The translations under genes and the position numbers were made by a program. Below, one piece after another: positions 7,002-13,658 of a stretch of DNA of 64,000 nt. The DNA lies in sequence record NC_020079.1; one strand, given 5' to 3'. Under the pieces are notes generated by a model. It was given only the letters and a program-made list of their open reading frames with translations, searched no databases and had not been told where the DNA came from. Source of the DNA: Escherichia phage phAPEC8. How positions within the stretch are numbered: the stretch's first letter is position 1; each line of letters starts with the position of its first letter.

Positions 7002-7030
7002 TTGCATAAACTTTGTTTTTGATGTATACT
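7002..7030 (+). promoter_or_regulatory. sigma70-like promoter, TTGCAT-N17-TATACT with TG extended -10
   Basis: TTGCAT 7002-7007, 17-nt spacer, TGnTATACT ending 7030; followed by SD AAGGAG (7034-7039) and GTG at 7046. Confidence 0.35.
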
Positions 7031-7045
7031 AAAAAGGAGATACAA

Positions 7046-7462
7046 GTGTTACTAGATCAATTTACTCTCCTTGATCTAACTGAATACCAAGGTCGTAGAC
7101 GAGTCTACAAAGAGGCCGTTGGTTCAGTTATTGCTAACTTAGAAAGTAGTGTAGAATATGAACCATTTACTATTGAAGCTGCAAGCTTACAACCGATATC
7201 TGGTAAAACACTGAATGCACTACCTGAAGGTTACAGATCTAAGGCTCAATATAGTTTCTGGACTAAAACAGAAATGAAGGGGTTACAACAAGGAACAGAA
7301 CAGTTATCAGATCAGATATTGATAGATGGTAAATGGTATTCTGTTTATTCCCTTAAAGATTGGACCAGAACATCTTTCTTAGTCCATCATCACTGTGTTG
7401 CAATATTAGATGATCAAAACAACTCCTGGTCTTATGGAACAGAAGGAGGAAATTTTGGCTAA
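7046..7462 (+). CDS. hypothetical neck/tail-completion protein
   Basis: Track ORF 7013..7462; the in-frame GTG at 7046 has a near-perfect SD and lies downstream of the promoter-like element, so it is the preferred start. Confidence 0.45.
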   Translation: MLLDQFTLLDLTEYQGRRRVYKEAVGSVIANLESSVEYEPFTIEAASLQPISGKTLNALPEGYRSKAQYSFWTKTEMKGLQQGTEQLSDQILIDGKWYSVYSLKDWTRTSFLVHHHCVAILDDQNNSWSYGTEGGNFG

Positions 7463-8093
7463 TATTTACCAACAAATAGAAGCATACGAAAATGCCATCT
7501 ACTTAAATATAGGTGGCTTCCTTCAAGAATTAGTGGGGTTGCCAGTCTATGTTATGGATAAGCCATTCATTAAACCGGATACTCCTTACCTAGCACTACG
7601 TATTATCACTTCCAGCGATTCTGGAGGTTGGTCTTACCGAAGCTCTATTCAAAATGATATGTATTCCTACGAGATGGATAATACCTACGAGATTGAACTT
7701 GTAGCCTATCGTGGAAGACCTACCACTTTGATGAGCTATGTTCTGGCTGCTCTCCGTGGTGCAGAGGAATTAAAATACAAACATCTCTATTCTAAAGGTC
7801 TTGGTTTTTTAGGAGCCTCTAATATAGCTCAAGCCAATACAATTGTAGACGGAGATAAGACTGAATTAAGAGCGCGTATGGTTATGACGTTCAACACTCG
7901 TATGAGTATTGAAGATATTGCTACTACACCAATAGAAGCAATCAACATGCACATCCGTTCATTCAGAGATAGTTACAATGATCCTATCCCTTTAGATTTA
8001 ATTCTAAACAGGGTTTATGCAATTACTTTGGTTCCAGGCGAATACTCGTCAGTTAATCAAAATGGATCATTATTTAACAACCCTACCGAATAA
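7434..8093 (+). CDS. hypothetical neck/tail-completion protein
   Basis: Track ORF 7410..8093; start ambiguous (ATG 7410, ATG 7434 or TTG 7455 after GGAGGA); overlaps the 3' end of the upstream gene. Confidence 0.4.
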   Translation: MEQKEEILANIYQQIEAYENAIYLNIGGFLQELVGLPVYVMDKPFIKPDTPYLALRIITSSDSGGWSYRSSIQNDMYSYEMDNTYEIELVAYRGRPTTLMSYVLAALRGAEELKYKHLYSKGLGFLGASNIAQANTIVDGDKTELRARMVMTFNTRMSIEDIATTPIEAINMHIRSFRDSYNDPIPLDLILNRVYAITLVPGEYSSVNQNGSLFNNPTE

Positions 8094-8127: not shown

Positions 8128-9501
8128 ATGGCAACTTTTCGTGAAAAGGTAGCAACCGTAACTTTACTGTATGGTGCTACATCAATTCGTGAAACCCAGT
8201 TCGATATTCCCCTGATCCTTACAGGTCAGAACGTAACTGGCGAAGCGATTCAATATTACTCTTCTTCCGATGCACTTTTGGAAGCAGGTTATGGATTAAA
8301 TGATCCAGCGTATATTATGGCAGTCAAACTGTTTAACGGTTTGTTCCCACCAGATCAAGTCATGGTTGGTAAGCGTGAAGTTACAAACTTTACTCTAACT
8401 CCAATCGTAGAAGATAGTGCAACTTACACAATTACCATCAAAAATGGTACCAAGAAAAAAGAATTTAAATTCATTGCTGATGACACTGCAACTGCACAAG
8501 AGATTGTAGTTGGTCTGACTGAAATGATCAATGCAGATCTTGTTTATGGCCCACTGTTTACAGTAGCTAACAACGGTGCTGCAATGACTTTCACTCCAGT
8601 AGAAGGTAAGTTTGGTTCTATTGACAGCACAGGTTTCACTCAAGAAACTGTCTATGCTAATGCTATTACGGAAGATATTGCTGCTCTGCATGATATTGAT
8701 AGTAGCTGGTTCTGGACCCTTTCAGATTCCCATGAAACAGAAGATGTTCTAGCTTTGGCTGCATGGGTAGAAGAGAATGATAAAGTTTACTTCTTCTCTA
8801 GCTCTGAACCTGGAATTAAAACGAAAGCAGAAGATAACGTTCTGGAACGACTGAATGACCTCGGTTATAATAACACTTGCTTTGCTTTGTGGATGACCGA
8901 TGCAGATTCTGTATTCCCAGAAGCAGCAGTTGTTGGTGCAATCTGTTCTCGTCAACCTGGTTTAACTACTCTTCACGGTAAAACACTGGTAGGCGTAGAG
9001 ATCGAGAAACTGGATCAGACTTCGGAAAACAATATTGTTCAACAGAACGGTAACATCTATCGTAAAGAGCATGGAACTCTGTTCTATCGTGACGGATTGA
9101 TGGTTAGCGGTTTCTTTGTTGACTATGTTGTTCATGCTTTGTGGTTTAAAGCTCGCACAGAAGAATCACTGTTTACACTGTTTAAACAACAGTCTATGCT
9201 GGGTGGTGGTGTTCGTGCTACTTCAAATGGTCTGGCTTTGATTCGACAAGCTGTTCTGGCTAACCCGATCCAAGTAGGTATCCTCAACGGTTCCATCGCT
9301 AATGAAGTTGTTACTTCTGAAGAGACTGGTTTGCGTGTCGATCTGAAACCTATCGTTTATATTCCTTCTCGTGCCGATATGACTGATGCGCAAATCAATG
9401 CTCGTCTGGTCGATGGGATGAAGATTGAATATGTTTACGCTGGCTTCTTCCATTACGTTAAAGTTCAGGTTAACGTCCTGACTAACCGTACTGCAAACTA
9501 A
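8128..9501 (+). CDS. tail sheath protein (putative)
   Basis: 457-aa ORF immediately upstream of a 159-aa tube-like gene, chaperone pair and tape measure, the canonical contractile-tail order. No motif confirmation. Confidence 0.45.
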   Translation: MATFREKVATVTLLYGATSIRETQFDIPLILTGQNVTGEAIQYYSSSDALLEAGYGLNDPAYIMAVKLFNGLFPPDQVMVGKREVTNFTLTPIVEDSATYTITIKNGTKKKEFKFIADDTATAQEIVVGLTEMINADLVYGPLFTVANNGAAMTFTPVEGKFGSIDSTGFTQETVYANAITEDIAALHDIDSSWFWTLSDSHETEDVLALAAWVEENDKVYFFSSSEPGIKTKAEDNVLERLNDLGYNNTCFALWMTDADSVFPEAAVVGAICSRQPGLTTLHGKTLVGVEIEKLDQTSENNIVQQNGNIYRKEHGTLFYRDGLMVSGFFVDYVVHALWFKARTEESLFTLFKQQSMLGGGVRATSNGLALIRQAVLANPIQVGILNGSIANEVVTSEETGLRVDLKPIVYIPSRADMTDAQINARLVDGMKIEYVYAGFFHYVKVQVNVLTNRTAN

Positions 9502-9504
9502 TAC

Positions 9505-9525
9505 GGCGGGGGTTAAGCCCCCGTT
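9505..9525 (+). terminator. GC-rich stem-loop after sheath gene (weak terminator or stability element)
   Basis: CGGGGG/CCCCCG stem (9507-9512 / 9518-9523) with flanking wobble pairs; downstream U-tract is poor. Confidence 0.3.
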
Positions 9526-9547
9526 ATCAAAATAAAGAGGATCTATA

Positions 9548-10027
9548 ATGGATAAAATGCTTACTGGCGTAATGGCCTACGACCCATCTCAAGTTATCCT
9601 TTCATTAGGTGGTTGGGAACCGTGGGGTTTTGCGGCTGATACTAAAATCGTTATTGCTAAATCTAACGATATTATCAACCCTTATTCAGGGACTGATGGC
9701 GACGTTTCACTAGCTTTGAGTCGTAACCGTTTAGGAACACTCACAATGTCTTTGCAACGCACATCTCCAGCTAACGAAGTACTTGCAACATATGCACAAA
9801 CAATGTATTCTACTCGTCAAGTAGCGTTCAGTGTTTACTTGGAAGACCCACGTGGCTATTACATTAGCACGATTGGATGGATTCAAAGTCAGCCTGAAGA
9901 TACTATTGGCGAAATGATTACAGAGAACCAATGGGTTATTGGTCTTAAAGATGCAAGCCTTCTGCGTAATGAAGTTGGTGTAGGTTTGAGCACCCTTAAC
10001 TCAATCTCTGCTCTGACAATTCAATAA
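9548..10027 (+). CDS. tail tube protein (putative)
   Basis: 159-aa ORF between sheath-like gene and tail chaperone genes; strong SD AAAGAGG; followed by a terminator. Confidence 0.45.
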   Translation: MDKMLTGVMAYDPSQVILSLGGWEPWGFAADTKIVIAKSNDIINPYSGTDGDVSLALSRNRLGTLTMSLQRTSPANEVLATYAQTMYSTRQVAFSVYLEDPRGYYISTIGWIQSQPEDTIGEMITENQWVIGLKDASLLRNEVGVGLSTLNSISALTIQ

Positions 10028-10033
10028 TAAATA

Positions 10034-10060
10034 AAGGGCAGAAATGCCCTTTTTATCATT
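10034..10060 (+). terminator. rho-independent terminator after tube gene
   Basis: Stem AAGGGCA/TGCCCTT with GAAA loop followed by TTTTATCATT. Confidence 0.55.
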
Positions 10061-10072
10061 AGAGAGGAAAAT

Positions 10073-10555
10073 ATGTCACAAGAACAAGATAACACAATTC
10101 AAAAATATGCTCGACCAGAAGAAGTAGTTGAGATTCCGTTAGATGGAAACAGATCTGTTACTTTCCGTATTATGAAGTGGAGTCCATCTAAAGTGTTTGA
10201 CAGGATTCCAGAATTAGGTAGTGTTCTGGTTGTTCCTATGACTATGTATAGCACAGCAACAATGTCCGCAGACGAAGACCTTGAGTCACGTATTGCTATG
10301 GCACTGATCCAACTTTTTGCAGGTTTGGAAGAAAAGAATTTAACTGTCTTTTTGCGTAAAATTTTAGATGAGGTTTATACTCAAGACGGTTATAACGTTG
10401 CAGAAAATTTTGATGAATTATTTATGGCTCACCCAGAACTAGTGTTAGATCTTACGGCTAAAGTTCTGGAGGTAAACTACGGCCCTTTTTTCAAACGAGG
10501 TTTCGGAAAACTGTTCACACAGCTTCAGGCGATGACGAGTTTAGCAGCAAATTAA
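10073..10555 (+). CDS. tail assembly chaperone (G-like, zero-frame product)
   Basis: 160-aa ORF directly upstream of the tape measure gene; contains slippery heptamer T_TTT_TTC near its 3' end with an open -1 frame continuing downstream. Confidence 0.55.
   Translation: MSQEQDNTIQKYARPEEVVEIPLDGNRSVTFRIMKWSPSKVFDRIPELGSVLVVPMTMYSTATMSADEDLESRIAMALIQLFAGLEEKNLTVFLRKILDEVYTQDGYNVAENFDELFMAHPELVLDLTAKVLEVNYGPFFKRGFGKLFTQLQAMTSLAAN
10486..10492 (+). other. programmed -1 ribosomal frameshift slippery site (T_TTT_TTC)
   Basis: Heptamer in X_XXY_YYZ register relative to the 10073 frame (codons CCT TTT TTC AAA); the -1 frame is open from 10462 to the stop at 10819-10821. Confidence 0.5.
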
Positions 10556-10821
10556 CACCTGCGATTGAACATGCTATCGACACAGCAACGAAAACCCTTA
10601 CTTTGAAGTGGTATGAGGTTATTCTTTGCAAAGTCGTTAAAGATACCTCGGAAACACTGAAAACATTGGATAACTACGGTGTAGATTATCTTTTAAAACT
10701 ATATGAGTATTTAACATACGAAGAGTATGTTGAAGCCATGTATGTTAAAGACACTTCAATAAAGAGAAAACATCAAAACCAGACAAATAAAATGTCAGAT
10801 TTGTTTAAGAAACTTGTTTAA
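10489..10821 (+). CDS. tail assembly chaperone -1 frame extension (GT-like fusion, C-terminal part)
   Basis: After a -1 slip at 10486-10492 translation continues ...PFFQTRFRKTVHTASGDDEF... to 10821, giving a fusion of about 250 aa; track ORF 10603..10821 is the tail of this frame. Confidence 0.45.
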   Translation, partial: FQTRFRKTVHTASGDDEFSSKLTPAIEHAIDTATKTLTLKWYEVILCKVVKDTSETLKTLDNYGVDYLLKLYEYLTYEEYVEAMYVKDTSIKRKHQNQTNKMSDLFKKLV

Positions 10822-10841
10822 TCCAACACGAGGAACATACT

Positions 10842-12830
10842 TTGTTAGAAATTAACGCCTCCAAAATTAGTAACGTGGTTACGTTTAAGGTGGACAAGAA
10901 CAGTCTCAAGGAAGCAAAAGATGCCGTGTTGAGTGTTCAGAAGTTTGCAAATAAAATGCAACCCACTATGAACATGACCAAGTTTAGACAGCAAATGAAA
11001 GAGATTGAGCGTGAACTTAAGAAAGCTCAAACTCAAAGTCAAAAACCTATGCGAGCACCTACTCCCGCTGGAGCGGGTGCTCCTGTAGGAGGATCTGGTA
11101 GACCTAGAACTCCTAAAACCCCGCAAGGAAGAGAAGAAGAAAAAGCTCGTAAAGCTGCTGAACGCGAAGCTAAAGCAGCAGCACGTAGGGAAGATTTAGG
11201 TAATCTTCGTTTGCAGAACTTTAACTATCGAGCAAGAGCATTTAGTAAAGCTAGTCCTGGCGCTATGCAAGAAGCTAGAGACGTTATGGGTAAAGCTGTA
11301 GAACAATACAAAAAGGGTGAAATAACTCTTCAACGTATGAACCAAGCTCTTGCTCACCAGTTAGATGCCTTACGCAGATCTCATCGTGAAAAGAATGCTG
11401 AAATAGAAGACGAGGTTCGCGGTCGTCGCCGTATTCGTAGAGAGCTAGAAGCAGAAGCTAAAATGCGTATACGTATGCGAAATCGTGAACTTAGAGATAT
11501 AGAACGCAACCGTAAGCGTGAATTAGCTCAACAAAAACGTGATCGTGATCGTCGATATGGACAATTAAAAGAAGGTGCAGCAGGTCTTAATCCACGCATG
11601 ATTGCATCCTCTTTAATAGGTGCTGGGCTGTTTGCAGGTGGTTCTGTAGTTGGTAACACGTTGATGAATACTAACGAAAGAATTAAACTTGTAAGTCGTG
11701 GTGCTGAAAACGTTCAGACAAACGCCAACGCTATTTTGGCAATGACAGCTTGGGGTGAACAGAACGGTGTAGACTCTGCAAATATTATTAAGTCAATAGA
11801 TAATATTAAAGACGTTCGTGAACGTCTTGGTAATACAGTTTTAGCCTCAAAATGGAATGAGAAAGAAGGGAAGTGGAAAGGCGGTGATAATGGCATAAAT
11901 GACATTATGAACTTGTTTGGATGGAATCCAGAACAGCTTAAACCTTTACAGAACGATCCTTTAGCTTTTATTCAGGCTACTGTTAATGAAGGTGAGCGTC
12001 GAGGTATGAACTCTGCTCAAATCGGGCGACTTCTTGAAAACCTTGGTGATGACCTTATGCACTACCAACGTATGTTTAGTAAAAACGGCGAAGGGTATAA
12101 TGAAGTATTGAAAATGCTTCAAAGAACAGGTGCAACATTAACTCAAGAACAAATAGATGCTTCTAAAGAGTTTACTCGTTTTGCTGCAACAGTTCAGCTT
12201 GTAGGTCAAGGTATGCAGAACCATTTCTTAGAGGGTTTTGTAAAAGCTTTACCTAAAGATGATTCTTGGTTGGATAACGTTAAAGTGCTAGATCAGTTCG
12301 CCAAAGATTTAGGTGAAGAACTTGGTAAAACAACAGTTCAACTTGGTGGTTTTGCTAAAGAATTAGGAGATGGTTTCGGATCTTTTACCAATTGGCTTAA
12401 AGAAACATTCCCAGATACCTTCGGAGACAACACAGATCCTAATAAATCTTTGGCACAAAAAGCATACGAGGCAACGCAAAGTGGAGACAGCAATCCTGTA
12501 GCAGATTGGTTGTACAATTTAACAGGTATTGATACACAAGATATTGGTCGTATGTGGAGAGGAGAAGAAACAAGGACACGTGCTTTTGGATTTGGTAATC
12601 CTCTTGAAGATTTACGTGAATCAGCCTATACACCTAACGTAAGTTTGGCTCGTAATCAACCTGTTGTTGAGAATACGGTAGCAATACCAAGTGATCTTAT
12701 CAAAGTTACGATCAGCCCTTCTTCAGAGTTTGGAAATATTCTTGATGCAAGAATTCAAAATAGCGGAAATAGCATTTTCCAACGTTTGTCTCTTTCAACT
12801 CTAAGTGGACAATCTAACACTGGTGGTTAA
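10842..12830 (+). CDS. tail tape measure protein
   Basis: 662 aa; charged helical repeats (EEKARKAAEREAKAAARRED, RRRIRRELEAEAKMRIRMRNRELRD) and Gly-rich hydrophobic segment; located immediately after the frameshifted chaperone pair; followed by a strong terminator. Confidence 0.7.
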   Translation: MLEINASKISNVVTFKVDKNSLKEAKDAVLSVQKFANKMQPTMNMTKFRQQMKEIERELKKAQTQSQKPMRAPTPAGAGAPVGGSGRPRTPKTPQGREEEKARKAAEREAKAAARREDLGNLRLQNFNYRARAFSKASPGAMQEARDVMGKAVEQYKKGEITLQRMNQALAHQLDALRRSHREKNAEIEDEVRGRRRIRRELEAEAKMRIRMRNRELRDIERNRKRELAQQKRDRDRRYGQLKEGAAGLNPRMIASSLIGAGLFAGGSVVGNTLMNTNERIKLVSRGAENVQTNANAILAMTAWGEQNGVDSANIIKSIDNIKDVRERLGNTVLASKWNEKEGKWKGGDNGINDIMNLFGWNPEQLKPLQNDPLAFIQATVNEGERRGMNSAQIGRLLENLGDDLMHYQRMFSKNGEGYNEVLKMLQRTGATLTQEQIDASKEFTRFAATVQLVGQGMQNHFLEGFVKALPKDDSWLDNVKVLDQFAKDLGEELGKTTVQLGGFAKELGDGFGSFTNWLKETFPDTFGDNTDPNKSLAQKAYEATQSGDSNPVADWLYNLTGIDTQDIGRMWRGEETRTRAFGFGNPLEDLRESAYTPNVSLARNQPVVENTVAIPSDLIKVTISPSSEFGNILDARIQNSGNSIFQRLSLSTLSGQSNTGG

Positions 12831-12837
12831 TAAAATA

Positions 12838-12859
12838 CCTCGCTTCGGCGGGGTTTTTT
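12838..12859 (+). terminator. rho-independent terminator after tape measure gene
   Basis: Stem CCTCGC/GCGGGG with UUCG tetraloop (12838-12853) followed by T6 (12854-12859). Confidence 0.6.
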
Positions 12860-12867
12860 CGTTTCCC

Positions 12868-12897
12868 TTGACACGAAGTTTCTATATGTGTTACAAT
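12868..12897 (+). promoter_or_regulatory. sigma70-like promoter, TTGACA-N18-TACAAT with TG extended -10
   Basis: TTGACA 12868-12873, 18-nt spacer, TGtTACAAT ending 12897; sits between the terminator and the next gene start at 12957. Confidence 0.4.
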
Positions 12898-12956
12898 AAT
12901 CAATATGGGAAGATCTTGCATCTTCCTTTTGGCATTATCATTACTACGAGGTTATC

Positions 12957-13658
12957 ATGGCAGCAATGACTCCACAACAGTCGGTGAGAGCCGTCTATAA
13001 GGCAGAACAGGAAATCAACTCTACCGAGAATAAAAATACCTCGGCATCTACTGTAAAGGGTGATAATGGTTTCTGCATTTTAGCAAGTGTTTATAATAGT
13101 TCAAGTGATCAATATATTCAAAACTTTAAAGCAATTACTTTCGATTCAGTCCCTGAAATAGGTGTAACTCGTGAGGCAGATGTTACAAGTTTTCCAGTAG
13201 AATCAGGATCAGATGTAAGTGACCACGTTCAAATAAAAAACAACAGATTTAAACTTTCAGGTATAATTACCGAAACACCAATTCGGCTTATGCGAGATCA
13301 ACTATACAGCGCAGGTGTAAATGGGGCAAGGATTTCTCAAGCAATAGAATATCTAGATCAAATATTTGAGTCAAGACAACCAATAGTTCTTTTGACAGAA
13401 CACAGGACTTTTGAAAATGTTATTCTGAAAGGCTACTCTTATGATTATAAATCTGAATTTGCTATGCAATTTGATTTAGAGTTCGAACAAATTCGTCTAG
13501 TCTCTAAGGCCACTACTAATGCTATTGCTGTAAAAACAGCACCAAATAAGTCAACTGGTGGTGATGTGAAAGGTCAAGTCGCTTCTAATGGTCCTAAGTC
13601 AGATATTACAGTAAGAACTGCTGAAGCTACTAACACCCCAACAAACAACGGAGGTTAA
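12957..13658 (+). CDS. hypothetical tail/baseplate protein
   Basis: 233-aa ORF, first gene after the tape measure; SD GAGG before ATG. Confidence 0.45.
   Translation: MAAMTPQQSVRAVYKAEQEINSTENKNTSASTVKGDNGFCILASVYNSSSDQYIQNFKAITFDSVPEIGVTREADVTSFPVESGSDVSDHVQIKNNRFKLSGIITETPIRLMRDQLYSAGVNGARISQAIEYLDQIFESRQPIVLLTEHRTFENVILKGYSYDYKSEFAMQFDLEFEQIRLVSKATTNAIAVKTAPNKSTGGDVKGQVASNGPKSDITVRTAEATNTPTNNGG

What the first reader, a model, noticed from the sequence alone, without database searches (positions are those of the whole stretch)
10073..10821. Conserved -1 programmed frameshift in the tail assembly chaperone pair
Seen in sequence: slippery heptamer T_TTT_TTC at 10486-10492 in the correct register, with the -1 frame open through to 10821, directly upstream of the tape measure gene. 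Established knowledge: this G/GT-type recoding is near-universal in long-tailed phages. It means ORF 10603..10821 is not an independent gene.
Basis: partly seen in the sequence, partly recalled or inferred. Interest (0 to 1): 0.4.

Follow-up and report, generated by a model that had tools for sequence, protein, structure and literature searches.

The report
Tail chaperone -1 frameshift site
This E. coli phage makes a short and a long version of its tail-assembly helper protein from one gene by letting some ribosomes slip back one base at TTTTTTC: an ordinary, well-known phage trick that public annotations of this phage group have missed.

Summary
The window is a Phapecoctavirus (phAPEC8-like E. 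coli myovirus). ORF 10073-10555 is a tail assembly chaperone (Pfam Phage_TAC_15, E 1e-23). It lies between the tail tube gene and the tape measure gene. T_TTT_TTC sits at 10486-10492 in X_XXY_YYZ register (Phe139-Phe140). The -1 frame is open from 10462 to 10821 and ends 20 nt before the tape measure start.

Comparison makes chance untenable. The window and all 54 related loci (29 distinct sequence contexts, two subfamilies, down to about 23% protein identity) keep the same heptamer at the homologous Phe-Phe. All keep an open -1 frame of 80-92 codons past the chaperone stop. The -1-frame peptide is conserved from the first residues after the slip (invariant Arg-Phe).

ORF 10603-10821 has no Shine-Dalgarno sequence and no conserved start codon. 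In two relatives no start exists before the conserved region ends, so it is not an independent gene.

New here: a GGAGG 13 nt upstream, at the spacing of a dnaX-type stimulator, present in most but not all relatives, and no conserved 3' structure. RNA polymerase slippage at T6 would give the same protein and is not excluded.

This is a new member of a known kind. None of 18 public records inspected annotates the fusion.

The parts
10073..10555 (+). Zero-frame tail assembly chaperone gene (short form, 'G'-like; 160 aa, 18.2 kDa), ATG start with a Shine-Dalgarno sequence
   Evidence: Pfam PF21822 Phage_TAC_15, E 1.3e-23, residues 29-143. phrog_3840 'tail assembly chaperone', E 2.8e-55. Anti-SD duplex -6.4 kcal/mol upstream of the ATG. 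Mass.
10468..10473 (+). Internal Shine-Dalgarno-like GGAGGT, 12-13 nt 5' of the heptamer: candidate 5' stimulator of the -1 shift (inferred)
   Evidence: Anti-SD duplex -10.7 kcal/mol; only 0.17% of 12-mers in the phage's structural genes are as strong, and it is the only such site in the chaperone gene. It is built from the rarer codons CTG and GAG (GAG is 26% of Glu codons). 15 of 27 distinct relatives' contexts score -9.9 or lower; 6 lack it. The stimulatory spacing for -1 shifts is 9-14 nt (PMC5009743).
10483..10492 (+). Slip site C_CCT_TTT_TTC: the conserved heptamer T_TTT_TTC (10486-10492), preceded in this subfamily by an overlapping C_CCT_TTT (10483-10489)
   Evidence: Sequence and register. 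Invariant in the window and all 54 related loci. Both motifs are in the high-efficiency class in E. coli (PMC4066793).
10492..10821 (+). -1 frame extension ('T' part, 109 aa) read after the slip; it includes the mechanical ORF 10603-10821
   Evidence: The -1 frame is open 10462-10821. The -1-frame peptide is conserved from Arg-Phe-Arg immediately after the slip. The AlphaFold2 model has a disordered linker at 144-159 and a helical domain at 160-249. phrog_16039 and phrog_10409 ('unknown function') match only the C-terminal part.
10073..10821 (+). Predicted fusion product (long form, 'GT'-like): codons 1-140 in the zero frame joined to 10492-10818 in the -1 frame; 249 aa, 28.8 kDa
   Evidence: Fusion built; mass. 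Two-piece tblastn matches in two frames in 134 phage records at 80% coverage or more.
10842..12830 (+). Tape measure gene (662 aa, TTG start), the presumed client of the chaperone pair
   Evidence: phrog_16051 'tail length tape measure protein', E = 0, over the full length. Annotated as tape measure in relatives.

Best explanation
A programmed -1 ribosomal frameshift in the tail assembly chaperone gene of a Phapecoctavirus.

Most ribosomes translate 10073-10555 and release the 160-aa short chaperone. A minority do something else when tRNA-Phe molecules occupy UUU (P site) and UUC (A site) of U_UUU_UUC at 10486-10492. Both tRNAs slip back one base and re-pair with UUU UUU, and reading continues with CAA at 10492 to the stop at 10821. 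The result is a 249-aa long form that shares its first 140 residues with the short form. A slip one codon earlier, on C_CCU_UUU, would give the identical protein.

An internal GGAGG 13 nt upstream probably pairs with 16S rRNA of the elongating ribosome and raises the shift rate, as in E. coli dnaX. No 3' hairpin or pseudoknot is involved, as in lambda G/GT and P2 E/E+E'.

By analogy with lambda gpG/gpGT, both forms coat the tape measure protein encoded just downstream, and the T domain of the long form recruits tail tube subunits. Neither form ends up in the virion.

Shown here: the sequence anatomy, its conservation, and the lack of an independent start for the T ORF. Inferred: that the shift happens on the ribosome, its efficiency, the role of the GGAGG, and the assembly function.
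For: - Anatomy: the heptamer is in register, the -1 frame is open 10462-10821, and the +1 frame is closed.
- Identity and synteny: Pfam Phage_TAC_15 E 1.3e-23. The Pfam match ends at residue 143, three residues past the slip. The gene order is sheath, tube, chaperone, tape measure.
- Conservation: the window and all 54 related loci (29 distinct contexts, Stephanstirmvirinae plus Vequintavirinae, identity to the query down to 23%) keep NNT_TTT_TTC at the homologous Phe-Phe. All loci not cut by a contig end keep 80-92 open -1 codons past the zero-frame stop. The preceding codon encodes Pro, Cys or Ser but always ends in T, while neighbouring synonymous sites vary.
- The -1 frame is translated from the slip onward: R143 and F144 are invariant, R145 nearly so, and A168 is invariant. 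All are encoded upstream of the first possible start of the T ORF.
- No independent initiation: there is no Shine-Dalgarno sequence at TTG 10603 (+0.1 kcal/mol, against -5.8 to -10.2 for real genes). There is no conserved start, and none exists before T residue 80-84 in Hena1 and KB57. The phi92 annotators marked a ribosome-binding site for gp132 and gp134 but not for gp133.
- Motif competence in the host: U_UUC is the second-best tetramer and H_HHU_UUY is among the most efficient heptamer classes in E. coli (PMC4066793).
- Precedents: the same heptamer is proposed for SPP1 17.5/17.5* (PMC6316719), and TTTTTTG is used by P2 E/E+E' (PMC3091744).
- 5' stimulator: the GGAGG scores -10.7 kcal/mol, in the top 0.17% of the background. 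It lies 13 nt upstream, within the 9-14 nt stimulatory range, and is made with the minority codons CTG and GAG.
- Fold model: a G domain, a disordered linker immediately after the slip, and a helical T domain.
Against: - No protein, ribosome-profiling or reporter data exist for this phage group in the literature searched.
- The GGAGG is absent or weak in 6 of 27 distinct contexts (Certrevirus-like phages, KB57, FBKp34, ChuuTotoro), so it cannot be essential to the family. Part of its conservation follows from the conserved Leu-Glu-Val peptide.
- No 3' stimulatory structure was found. Fold z-scores of eight downstream stretches range from -2.1 to +1.3, with seven of the eight between -0.8 and +1.3. 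RNAalifold finds no meaningful consensus structure in either subfamily. The efficiency may therefore be low.
- The conserved nucleotides inside the heptamer also encode the conserved Phe-Phe, so part of the invariance is protein-level. Only the three synonymous sites are free evidence.
- An extra U inserted by RNA polymerase in the T6 run would give the same protein.
Confidence: 0.88

Rival explanations
1. Transcriptional slippage. RNA polymerase occasionally adds one extra U while copying the T6 run (10486-10491). A subpopulation of mRNAs then carries U7 and encodes the 249-aa fusion in a single frame, which is read by standard translation.
For: The slip site is a homopolymer run. One inserted U gives GGC CCU UUU UUU CAA, the same protein sequence as the ribosomal shift (derived). 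No 3' RNA structure is present, which slippage would not need. Runs of U or A are recognised slippage substrates (PMC5009743).
Against: Productive bacterial slippage is described for runs of about 9 A or T (PMC5009743); here the run is exactly 6 in the window and all 54 related loci. It is never lengthened to 7, although a synonymous TTC-to-TTT change would do that. The run always starts at codon position 3, the tandem-slippage register, even though the preceding residue changes among Pro, Cys and Ser. A GGAGG at the 9-14 nt spacing makes sense only for a ribosomal mechanism. U_UUU_UUC is a measured ribosomal -1 motif in E. coli.
Confidence: 0.07
2. Two independent genes. ORF 10603-10821, or a longer version of it, is translated from its own start codon as a separate small protein, as annotated in many public records (for example phAPEC8_00161, phi92 gp133, phrog_16039).
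For: A mechanical ORF with a TTG start exists. Many genome records annotate a separate 'hypothetical protein' there, and PHROGs holds it as its own family.
Against: There is no Shine-Dalgarno sequence (+0.1 kcal/mol). The start position and codon are not conserved. In Hena1 and KB57 the first ATG, GTG or TTG lies at T residue 80-84, downstream of the conserved Ser-Leu-x-Trp segment. Conserved residues, including invariant R143, F144 and A168, lie upstream of every candidate start. The -1 frame is kept open across a 85-139 nt overlap with the chaperone gene in all 13 loci measured, which an independent gene would not need.
Confidence: 0.03
3. Chance or relic. The heptamer and the open -1 frame are coincidental or the remnant of a decayed gene, and only the 160-aa chaperone is functional.
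For: In a single genome an in-register heptamer in a 31-codon overlap is not very rare (about 0.13 expected for any X_XXY_YYZ).
Against: The heptamer, the overlap and an 80-92-codon open frame persist in the window and all 54 related loci, across protein divergence down to 23% identity. The T part shows amino-acid-level conservation.
Confidence: 0.01

Closest known systems
Phage lambda gpG / gpGT (-1 frameshift at G_GGA_AAG; Xu, Hendrix and Duda 2004, conserved frameshift in dsDNA phage tail assembly genes)
   Same: There are two overlapping ORFs between the major tail (tube) gene and the tape measure gene. [quoted passage not shown] The site is a heptanucleotide tandem-slippage site, and no 3' structure is needed. 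The predicted function is chaperoning the tape measure protein and recruiting tube subunits (PMC5009743 Figure 4 legend).
   Different: The heptamer differs (T_TTT_TTC). The host virus has a contractile tail. There is no detectable sequence similarity to gpG or gpT; the family is Pfam Phage_TAC_15. A candidate upstream Shine-Dalgarno-like stimulator is present.
Phage P2 E / E+E' (myovirus; -1 shift at TTTTTTG; Christie et al. 2002)
   Same: It is a contractile-tailed phage with a T6-based slippery heptamer and no downstream hairpin, and the site is conserved among relatives despite low protein identity (PMC3091744).
   Different: The last base is G in P2 and C here, so the A-site codon is Leu UUG in P2 and Phe UUC here. 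The P2 proteins are smaller (91 and 142 aa, against 160 and 249 aa). They belong to unrelated sequence families.
Bacillus phage SPP1 gp17.5 / gp17.5* (putative -1 shift at UUUUUUC)
   Same: The heptamer is identical, and the proteins are the functional analogues of gpG/gpGT (PMC6316719).
   Different: SPP1 is a siphovirus of a Gram-positive host. Its frameshift is also a bioinformatic prediction only.
Tail assembly chaperone locus of Vandenendeviridae (Pseudomonas phage Adele) and Andersonviridae (Moogle-like), with a conserved GTTTTT motif (PMC12846349, December 2025)
   Same: These are sister clades of Vequintavirinae and Stephanstirmvirinae with the same tail module. The downstream ORF is routinely mis-annotated as a separate hypothetical protein. 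[quoted passage not shown]
   Different: That paper did not analyse Stephanstirmvirinae or Vequintavirinae. Its motif is given as GTTTTT, whereas Stephanstirmvirinae have CCC before the T run. It does not report an upstream Shine-Dalgarno-like element.
E. coli dnaX (-1 shift at A_AAA_AAG with a 5' Shine-Dalgarno-like stimulator and a 3' hairpin)
   Same: An internal Shine-Dalgarno-like sequence lies 9-14 nt 5' of a tandem-slippage heptamer (PMC5009743).
   Different: dnaX also uses a strong 3' stem-loop and reaches about 50% efficiency. Here no 3' structure is found, and the upstream element is not universal in the family.

Membership tests
G/GT-type tail assembly chaperone pair with programmed -1 frameshift (Xu et al. 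2004) | Located between the major tail/tube gene and the tape measure gene, on the same strand | tested here: met
   Tube gene 9548-10027 (phrog_280), chaperone 10073-10555, T frame to 10821, tape measure 10842-12830 (phrog_16051, E = 0). Relatives show the same order.
G/GT-type tail assembly chaperone pair with programmed -1 frameshift (Xu et al. 2004) | The upstream ORF is a tail assembly chaperone | tested here: met
   Pfam PF21822 Phage_TAC_15, 84.3 bits against a cut-off of 22, E 1.3e-23. phrog_3840, E 2.8e-55. Structural confirmation was inconclusive.
G/GT-type tail assembly chaperone pair with programmed -1 frameshift (Xu et al. 2004) | The second ORF is in the -1 frame, overlaps the 3' end of the first and lacks its own initiation signals | tested here: met
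   There is a 94-nt overlap and the -1 frame is open 10462-10821. No Shine-Dalgarno sequence and no conserved start.
G/GT-type tail assembly chaperone pair with programmed -1 frameshift (Xu et al. 2004) | An in-register slippery sequence (X_XXY_YYZ) lies in the overlap and is conserved among relatives | tested here: met
   T_TTT_TTC at 10486-10492, invariant in the window and all 54 related loci.
G/GT-type tail assembly chaperone pair with programmed -1 frameshift (Xu et al. 2004) | Both the short and the frameshifted long protein are made, the long form being the minor one | not testable with these tools
   This needs proteomics, a western blot or a reporter assay. No such data were found for this phage group.
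G/GT-type tail assembly chaperone pair with programmed -1 frameshift (Xu et al. 2004) | Both forms are required for tail assembly and absent from virions; G binds the tape measure protein and T binds the tube protein | not testable with these tools
   Inferred only by analogy with lambda (PMC5009743). In CB7 the notes of sheath, tube and tape measure carry 'MS/MS confirmed', while those of CB7_19 and CB7_20 do not. That is consistent with the feature but weak.
dnaX-type 5' Shine-Dalgarno-stimulated -1 frameshift | An anti-SD-complementary sequence lies 9-14 nt 5' of the shift site | tested here: met
   GGAGG at 10468-10472, 13 nt before 10486; duplex -10.7 kcal/mol, top 0.17% of the background.
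dnaX-type 5' Shine-Dalgarno-stimulated -1 frameshift | The stimulator is conserved wherever the frameshift is conserved | tested here: not met
   It is strong in 15 of 27 distinct contexts, intermediate in 6, and absent in 6. It is therefore an accessory feature of some lineages, not a family trait.
dnaX-type 5' Shine-Dalgarno-stimulated -1 frameshift | A 3' stem-loop stimulator | tested here: not met
   No stable or conserved structure lies downstream.
Programmed transcriptional slippage | A homopolymer run long enough for productive RNA polymerase realignment (about 9 A or T in the bacterial examples) | tested here: not met
   The run is exactly T6 in the window and all 54 related loci. The reference length comes from PMC5009743.

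The most novel reading that the evidence does not exclude
The frameshift in this clade is tuned lineage by lineage through an optional 5' Shine-Dalgarno-like stimulator. It is strong in Phapecoctavirus, Justusliebigvirus, Vequintavirus and Seunavirus, and lost in Certrevirus, Mydovirus and FBKp34-like phages. In Stephanstirmvirinae an overlapping second heptamer (C_CCU_UUU_UUC) adds to it. On this reading the ratio of short to long chaperone differs systematically between otherwise homologous tail modules. Alternatively, part of the long form arises from RNA polymerase slippage on a run of only six T. Either outcome would make this a natural series for studying how the G:GT ratio is set.
Probability: 0.2. 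Interest if true: 0.4.

Novelty: new member of a known kind. Interest (0 to 1): 0.22.

Why it matters
The main value is for annotation. None of the 18 GenBank and RefSeq records inspected joins the two reading frames. They cover Phapecoctavirus, Justusliebigvirus (including phi92), Vequintavirus and other Stephanstirmvirinae and Vequintavirinae genera.

All 50 database proteins that matched the fusion profile are short forms of 154-175 aa. The T part is either left as unannotated 'intergenic' DNA or called a separate hypothetical protein, and PHROGs keeps it as a family of unknown function.

These phages are widely isolated for therapy and biocontrol of E. coli, Klebsiella, Salmonella and Pectobacterium. 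A correct gene model assigns a function to a 'hypothetical' ORF and flags a site that genome engineering must not disturb.

Scientifically it extends the G/GT rule to two more subfamilies of large contractile-tailed phages. It also offers a conserved U_UUU_UUC site with a variable upstream Shine-Dalgarno-like element as a natural comparison set.

Tried and rejected
- 3' stimulatory RNA structure. Single-sequence folds of the 68-108 nt after the heptamer, in the window and six relatives, gave z-scores from -2.1 to +1.3, with seven of eight between -0.8 and +1.3. RNAalifold on 10 Stephanstirmvirinae and 13 Vequintavirinae sequences gave no meaningful consensus. Rejected.
- The conserved GGTTT(C) 5-8 nt after the heptamer as an RNA element. 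Its spacing differs between subfamilies, and it encodes conserved residues in both frames (Gly-Phe in the zero frame, Arg-Phe in the -1 frame). It is therefore best explained by dual coding.
- Search for natural in-frame fusions or annotated slippage products. All 50 hits to the fusion profile were short forms.
- Other slippery sites. AAATTTT at 10405 lies upstream of the -1 stop at 10459 and is therefore unproductive. The +1 frame closes after 4 codons.
- Literature. No paper in the searched library describes this frameshift for phAPEC8-like or rV5-like phages. Vladimirov et al. 2022 could not be read.

Full report
**What the window is.** Bases 9500-13000 are 99.0-99.3% identical over their full length to the 25 best-matching Escherichia phage genomes of the genus Phapecoctavirus (subfamily Stephanstirmvirinae, phAPEC8-like myoviruses of about 150 kb). 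The local gene order is:
- tail sheath, 8128-9501 (phrog_205; Pfam DUF3383);
- tail tube, 9548-10027 (phrog_280);
- ORF1, 10073-10555;
- a mechanical ORF, 10603-10821;
- tape measure protein, 10842-12830 (phrog_16051, E = 0).

ORF1 is a tail assembly chaperone. It matches Pfam PF21822 Phage_TAC_15 with E 1.3e-23 (84 bits against a cut-off of 22) and phrog_3840 with E 2.8e-55.

**Checking the observation.** The sequence reads GGC CCT TTT TTC AAA in the ORF1 frame, so TTTTTTC at 10486-10492 is in X_XXY_YYZ register. The -1 frame has a stop at 10459 and is then open to the stop at 10819-10821. That gives a 94-nt overlap with ORF1 and 88 codons beyond its stop, while the +1 frame closes after 4 codons. 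An overlapping C_CCT_TTT at 10483-10489 would yield the same protein. A slip produces a 249-aa, 28.8-kDa protein that shares 140 residues with the 160-aa, 18.2-kDa short form.

Within this single window, chance is not negligible. In-register heptamers of any kind occur at 0.0044 per codon, about 0.13 expected in the 31-codon overlap. In-register TTTTTTC is rarer, about 0.005 expected.

**Comparative evidence.** tblastn with the fusion found 357 phage records. In 134 of them at least 80% of the query was covered by a single place, and in every such row listed the place consisted of two pieces, as expected for two reading frames. I fetched 15 annotated loci from and hits (three near-identical to the window, twelve divergent) and 39 IMG/VR loci. 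Three more loci came in later and were used only for the annotation count. The annotated loci span Phapecoctavirus, Justusliebigvirus, FBKp34-like phages, Vequintavirus, Seunavirus, Henunavirus, Mydovirus, Avunavirus, Certrevirus and unclassified Vequintavirinae. Identity to the window's fusion falls to 23%.

The window and all 54 loci (29 distinct contexts) carry NNT_TTT_TTC at the homologous Phe-Phe of a conserved Val-Asn-Tyr-x-x-Phe-Phe motif. Every locus not cut by a contig end keeps the -1 frame open for 80-92 codons past the zero-frame stop. The residue before the Phe-Phe changes (Pro, Cys, Ser), yet its codon is always CCT, TGT or AGT. The two Phe codons are always TTT then TTC. Flanking synonymous sites do vary (AAC/AAT, TAC/TAT, GGC/GGA/GGT). 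One of the two peptide patterns used for the IMG/VR scan contained FF, so presence of the dipeptide is partly ascertained. The nucleotide-level choices are not.

**The T frame is read from the slip site, not from its own start.** In the alignment of 19 fusions, R143 and F144 are invariant, R145 is nearly invariant and A168 is invariant. All are encoded before position 10603. The TTG at 10603 has no Shine-Dalgarno sequence: the anti-SD duplex is +0.1 kcal/mol, against -5.8 to -10.2 for eight real starts nearby. Candidate starts are not conserved among relatives. In Hena1 and KB57 none exists before T residue 80-84, beyond the conserved Ser-Leu-x-Trp segment. The phi92 record marks ribosome-binding sites for the chaperone and the tape measure genes but not for gp133.

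An AlphaFold2 model of the fusion (mean pLDDT 74) shows three parts: a folded N-terminal domain, a disordered stretch at 144-159 immediately after the slip, and a helical C-terminal domain at 160-249.

**Mechanism.** U_UUU_UUC allows both tRNA-Phe molecules to re-pair after a -1 move. In E. coli reporter assays U_UUC is the second most shift-prone tetramer, and H_HHU_UUY heptamers, which include both U_UUU_UUC and C_CCU_UUU, are among the most efficient (PMC4066793). The same heptamer is proposed for the SPP1 chaperone pair (PMC6316719), and TTTTTTG is used by P2 E/E+E' (PMC3091744).

I found no 3' stimulatory structure, either by single-sequence folding or by alignment folding. P2 also lacks one.

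I did find a GGAGG at 10468-10472, 13 nt before the heptamer:
- its anti-SD duplex is -10.7 kcal/mol;
- only 0.17% of 12-mers in the phage's structural genes are as strong;
- it is the only such site in the chaperone gene;
- it uses the minority codons CTG and GAG (GAG is 26% of Glu codons);
- the spacing falls in the 9-14 nt range reported for Shine-Dalgarno stimulation of -1 shifts (PMC5009743).

The element is strong in 15 of 27 distinct contexts and absent in 6. I therefore treat it as a likely accessory stimulator in this phage, not as a family trait.

**Rivals.** RNA polymerase slippage on the T6 run would insert a U and give exactly the same protein, so a junction peptide cannot separate the two mechanisms. 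Three points argue against it. The run is six long in all sequences and is never lengthened by the available synonymous change. Bacterial examples use about nine (PMC5009743). The Shine-Dalgarno-like element fits only a ribosomal event. I leave it at about 7%. Independent translation of ORF 10603-10821 and a chance or relic origin are contradicted by the start-site and conservation data above.

**Comparison with what is known, and novelty.** This is the G/GT-type chaperone frameshift described for lambda and generalised by Xu et al. (2004). All sequence-level membership features were tested and met. The two functional features, that both proteins are made and that both are needed for assembly, cannot be tested here.

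A December 2025 paper makes the same argument for the sister clades Vandenendeviridae and Andersonviridae, with a GTTTTT motif. It notes the same habitual mis-annotation but does not analyse Stephanstirmvirinae or Vequintavirinae (PMC12846349). I found no paper describing the frameshift for phAPEC8-like or rV5-like phages. None of 18 public records inspected joins the two frames. All 50 database proteins matching the fusion profile are short forms.

The finding is therefore a correct, well-supported new member of a known kind. Its practical value is for annotation, and the variable upstream Shine-Dalgarno-like element is of modest mechanistic interest.

Noticed in passing
window 10033-10052 and 12837-12854; promoter-like site 12868-12897: Intrinsic-terminator-like hairpins with T tails sit between the tube and chaperone genes and just after the tape measure gene. 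A near-consensus sigma-70-type promoter follows (TTGACA, 18 nt, TACAAT; 11 of 12 matches, with an extended TG). The chaperone and tape measure genes may therefore be expressed by read-through at a lower level than the tube gene. The ASO2A record annotates the same terminators.
   Followed up: partly
window 10842: The tape measure gene starts with TTG, preceded by GAGGAA. The 20-nt gap after the T-frame stop suggests translational coupling with the chaperone pair.
   Followed up: no
[not shown]
   Followed up: no
public records matched (e.g. MG065650.1, OP562383.1, MH252123.1, OR584014.1): Records labelled as Campylobacter, Acinetobacter or Klebsiella phages are 98-100% identical to the window in this region. 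Other Campylobacter-labelled records have exactly the same match statistics as E. coli Justusliebigvirus phages, and a Pseudomonas-labelled record (PsgM04F) is about 70% identical, like divergent Phapecoctavirus. The host labels look doubtful or reflect contamination.
   Followed up: no
L013 2300-3370 (Pectobacterium phage CB7): In Certrevirus two extra ORFs (117 nt and 951 nt) lie between the T-frame stop and the tape measure gene. In the other loci inspected, where the two genes are adjacent, the gap is about 10-150 nt.
   Followed up: no
window 12957-13658 and relatives (L001, L002, L006): Annotations of neighbouring tail genes are inconsistent. The 233-aa ORF after the tape measure gene is 'tail fiber protein' in RefSeq and 'tail tube initiator' in SKA64. 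The FBKp34 tape measure protein is annotated as a TolA-like cell envelope integrity protein.
   Followed up: no
window 7013-7462 and 7410-8093: Two + strand ORFs upstream of the sheath gene overlap by about 50 nt in different frames, and the first has a TTG start. They were not examined for recoding or mis-called starts.
   Followed up: no
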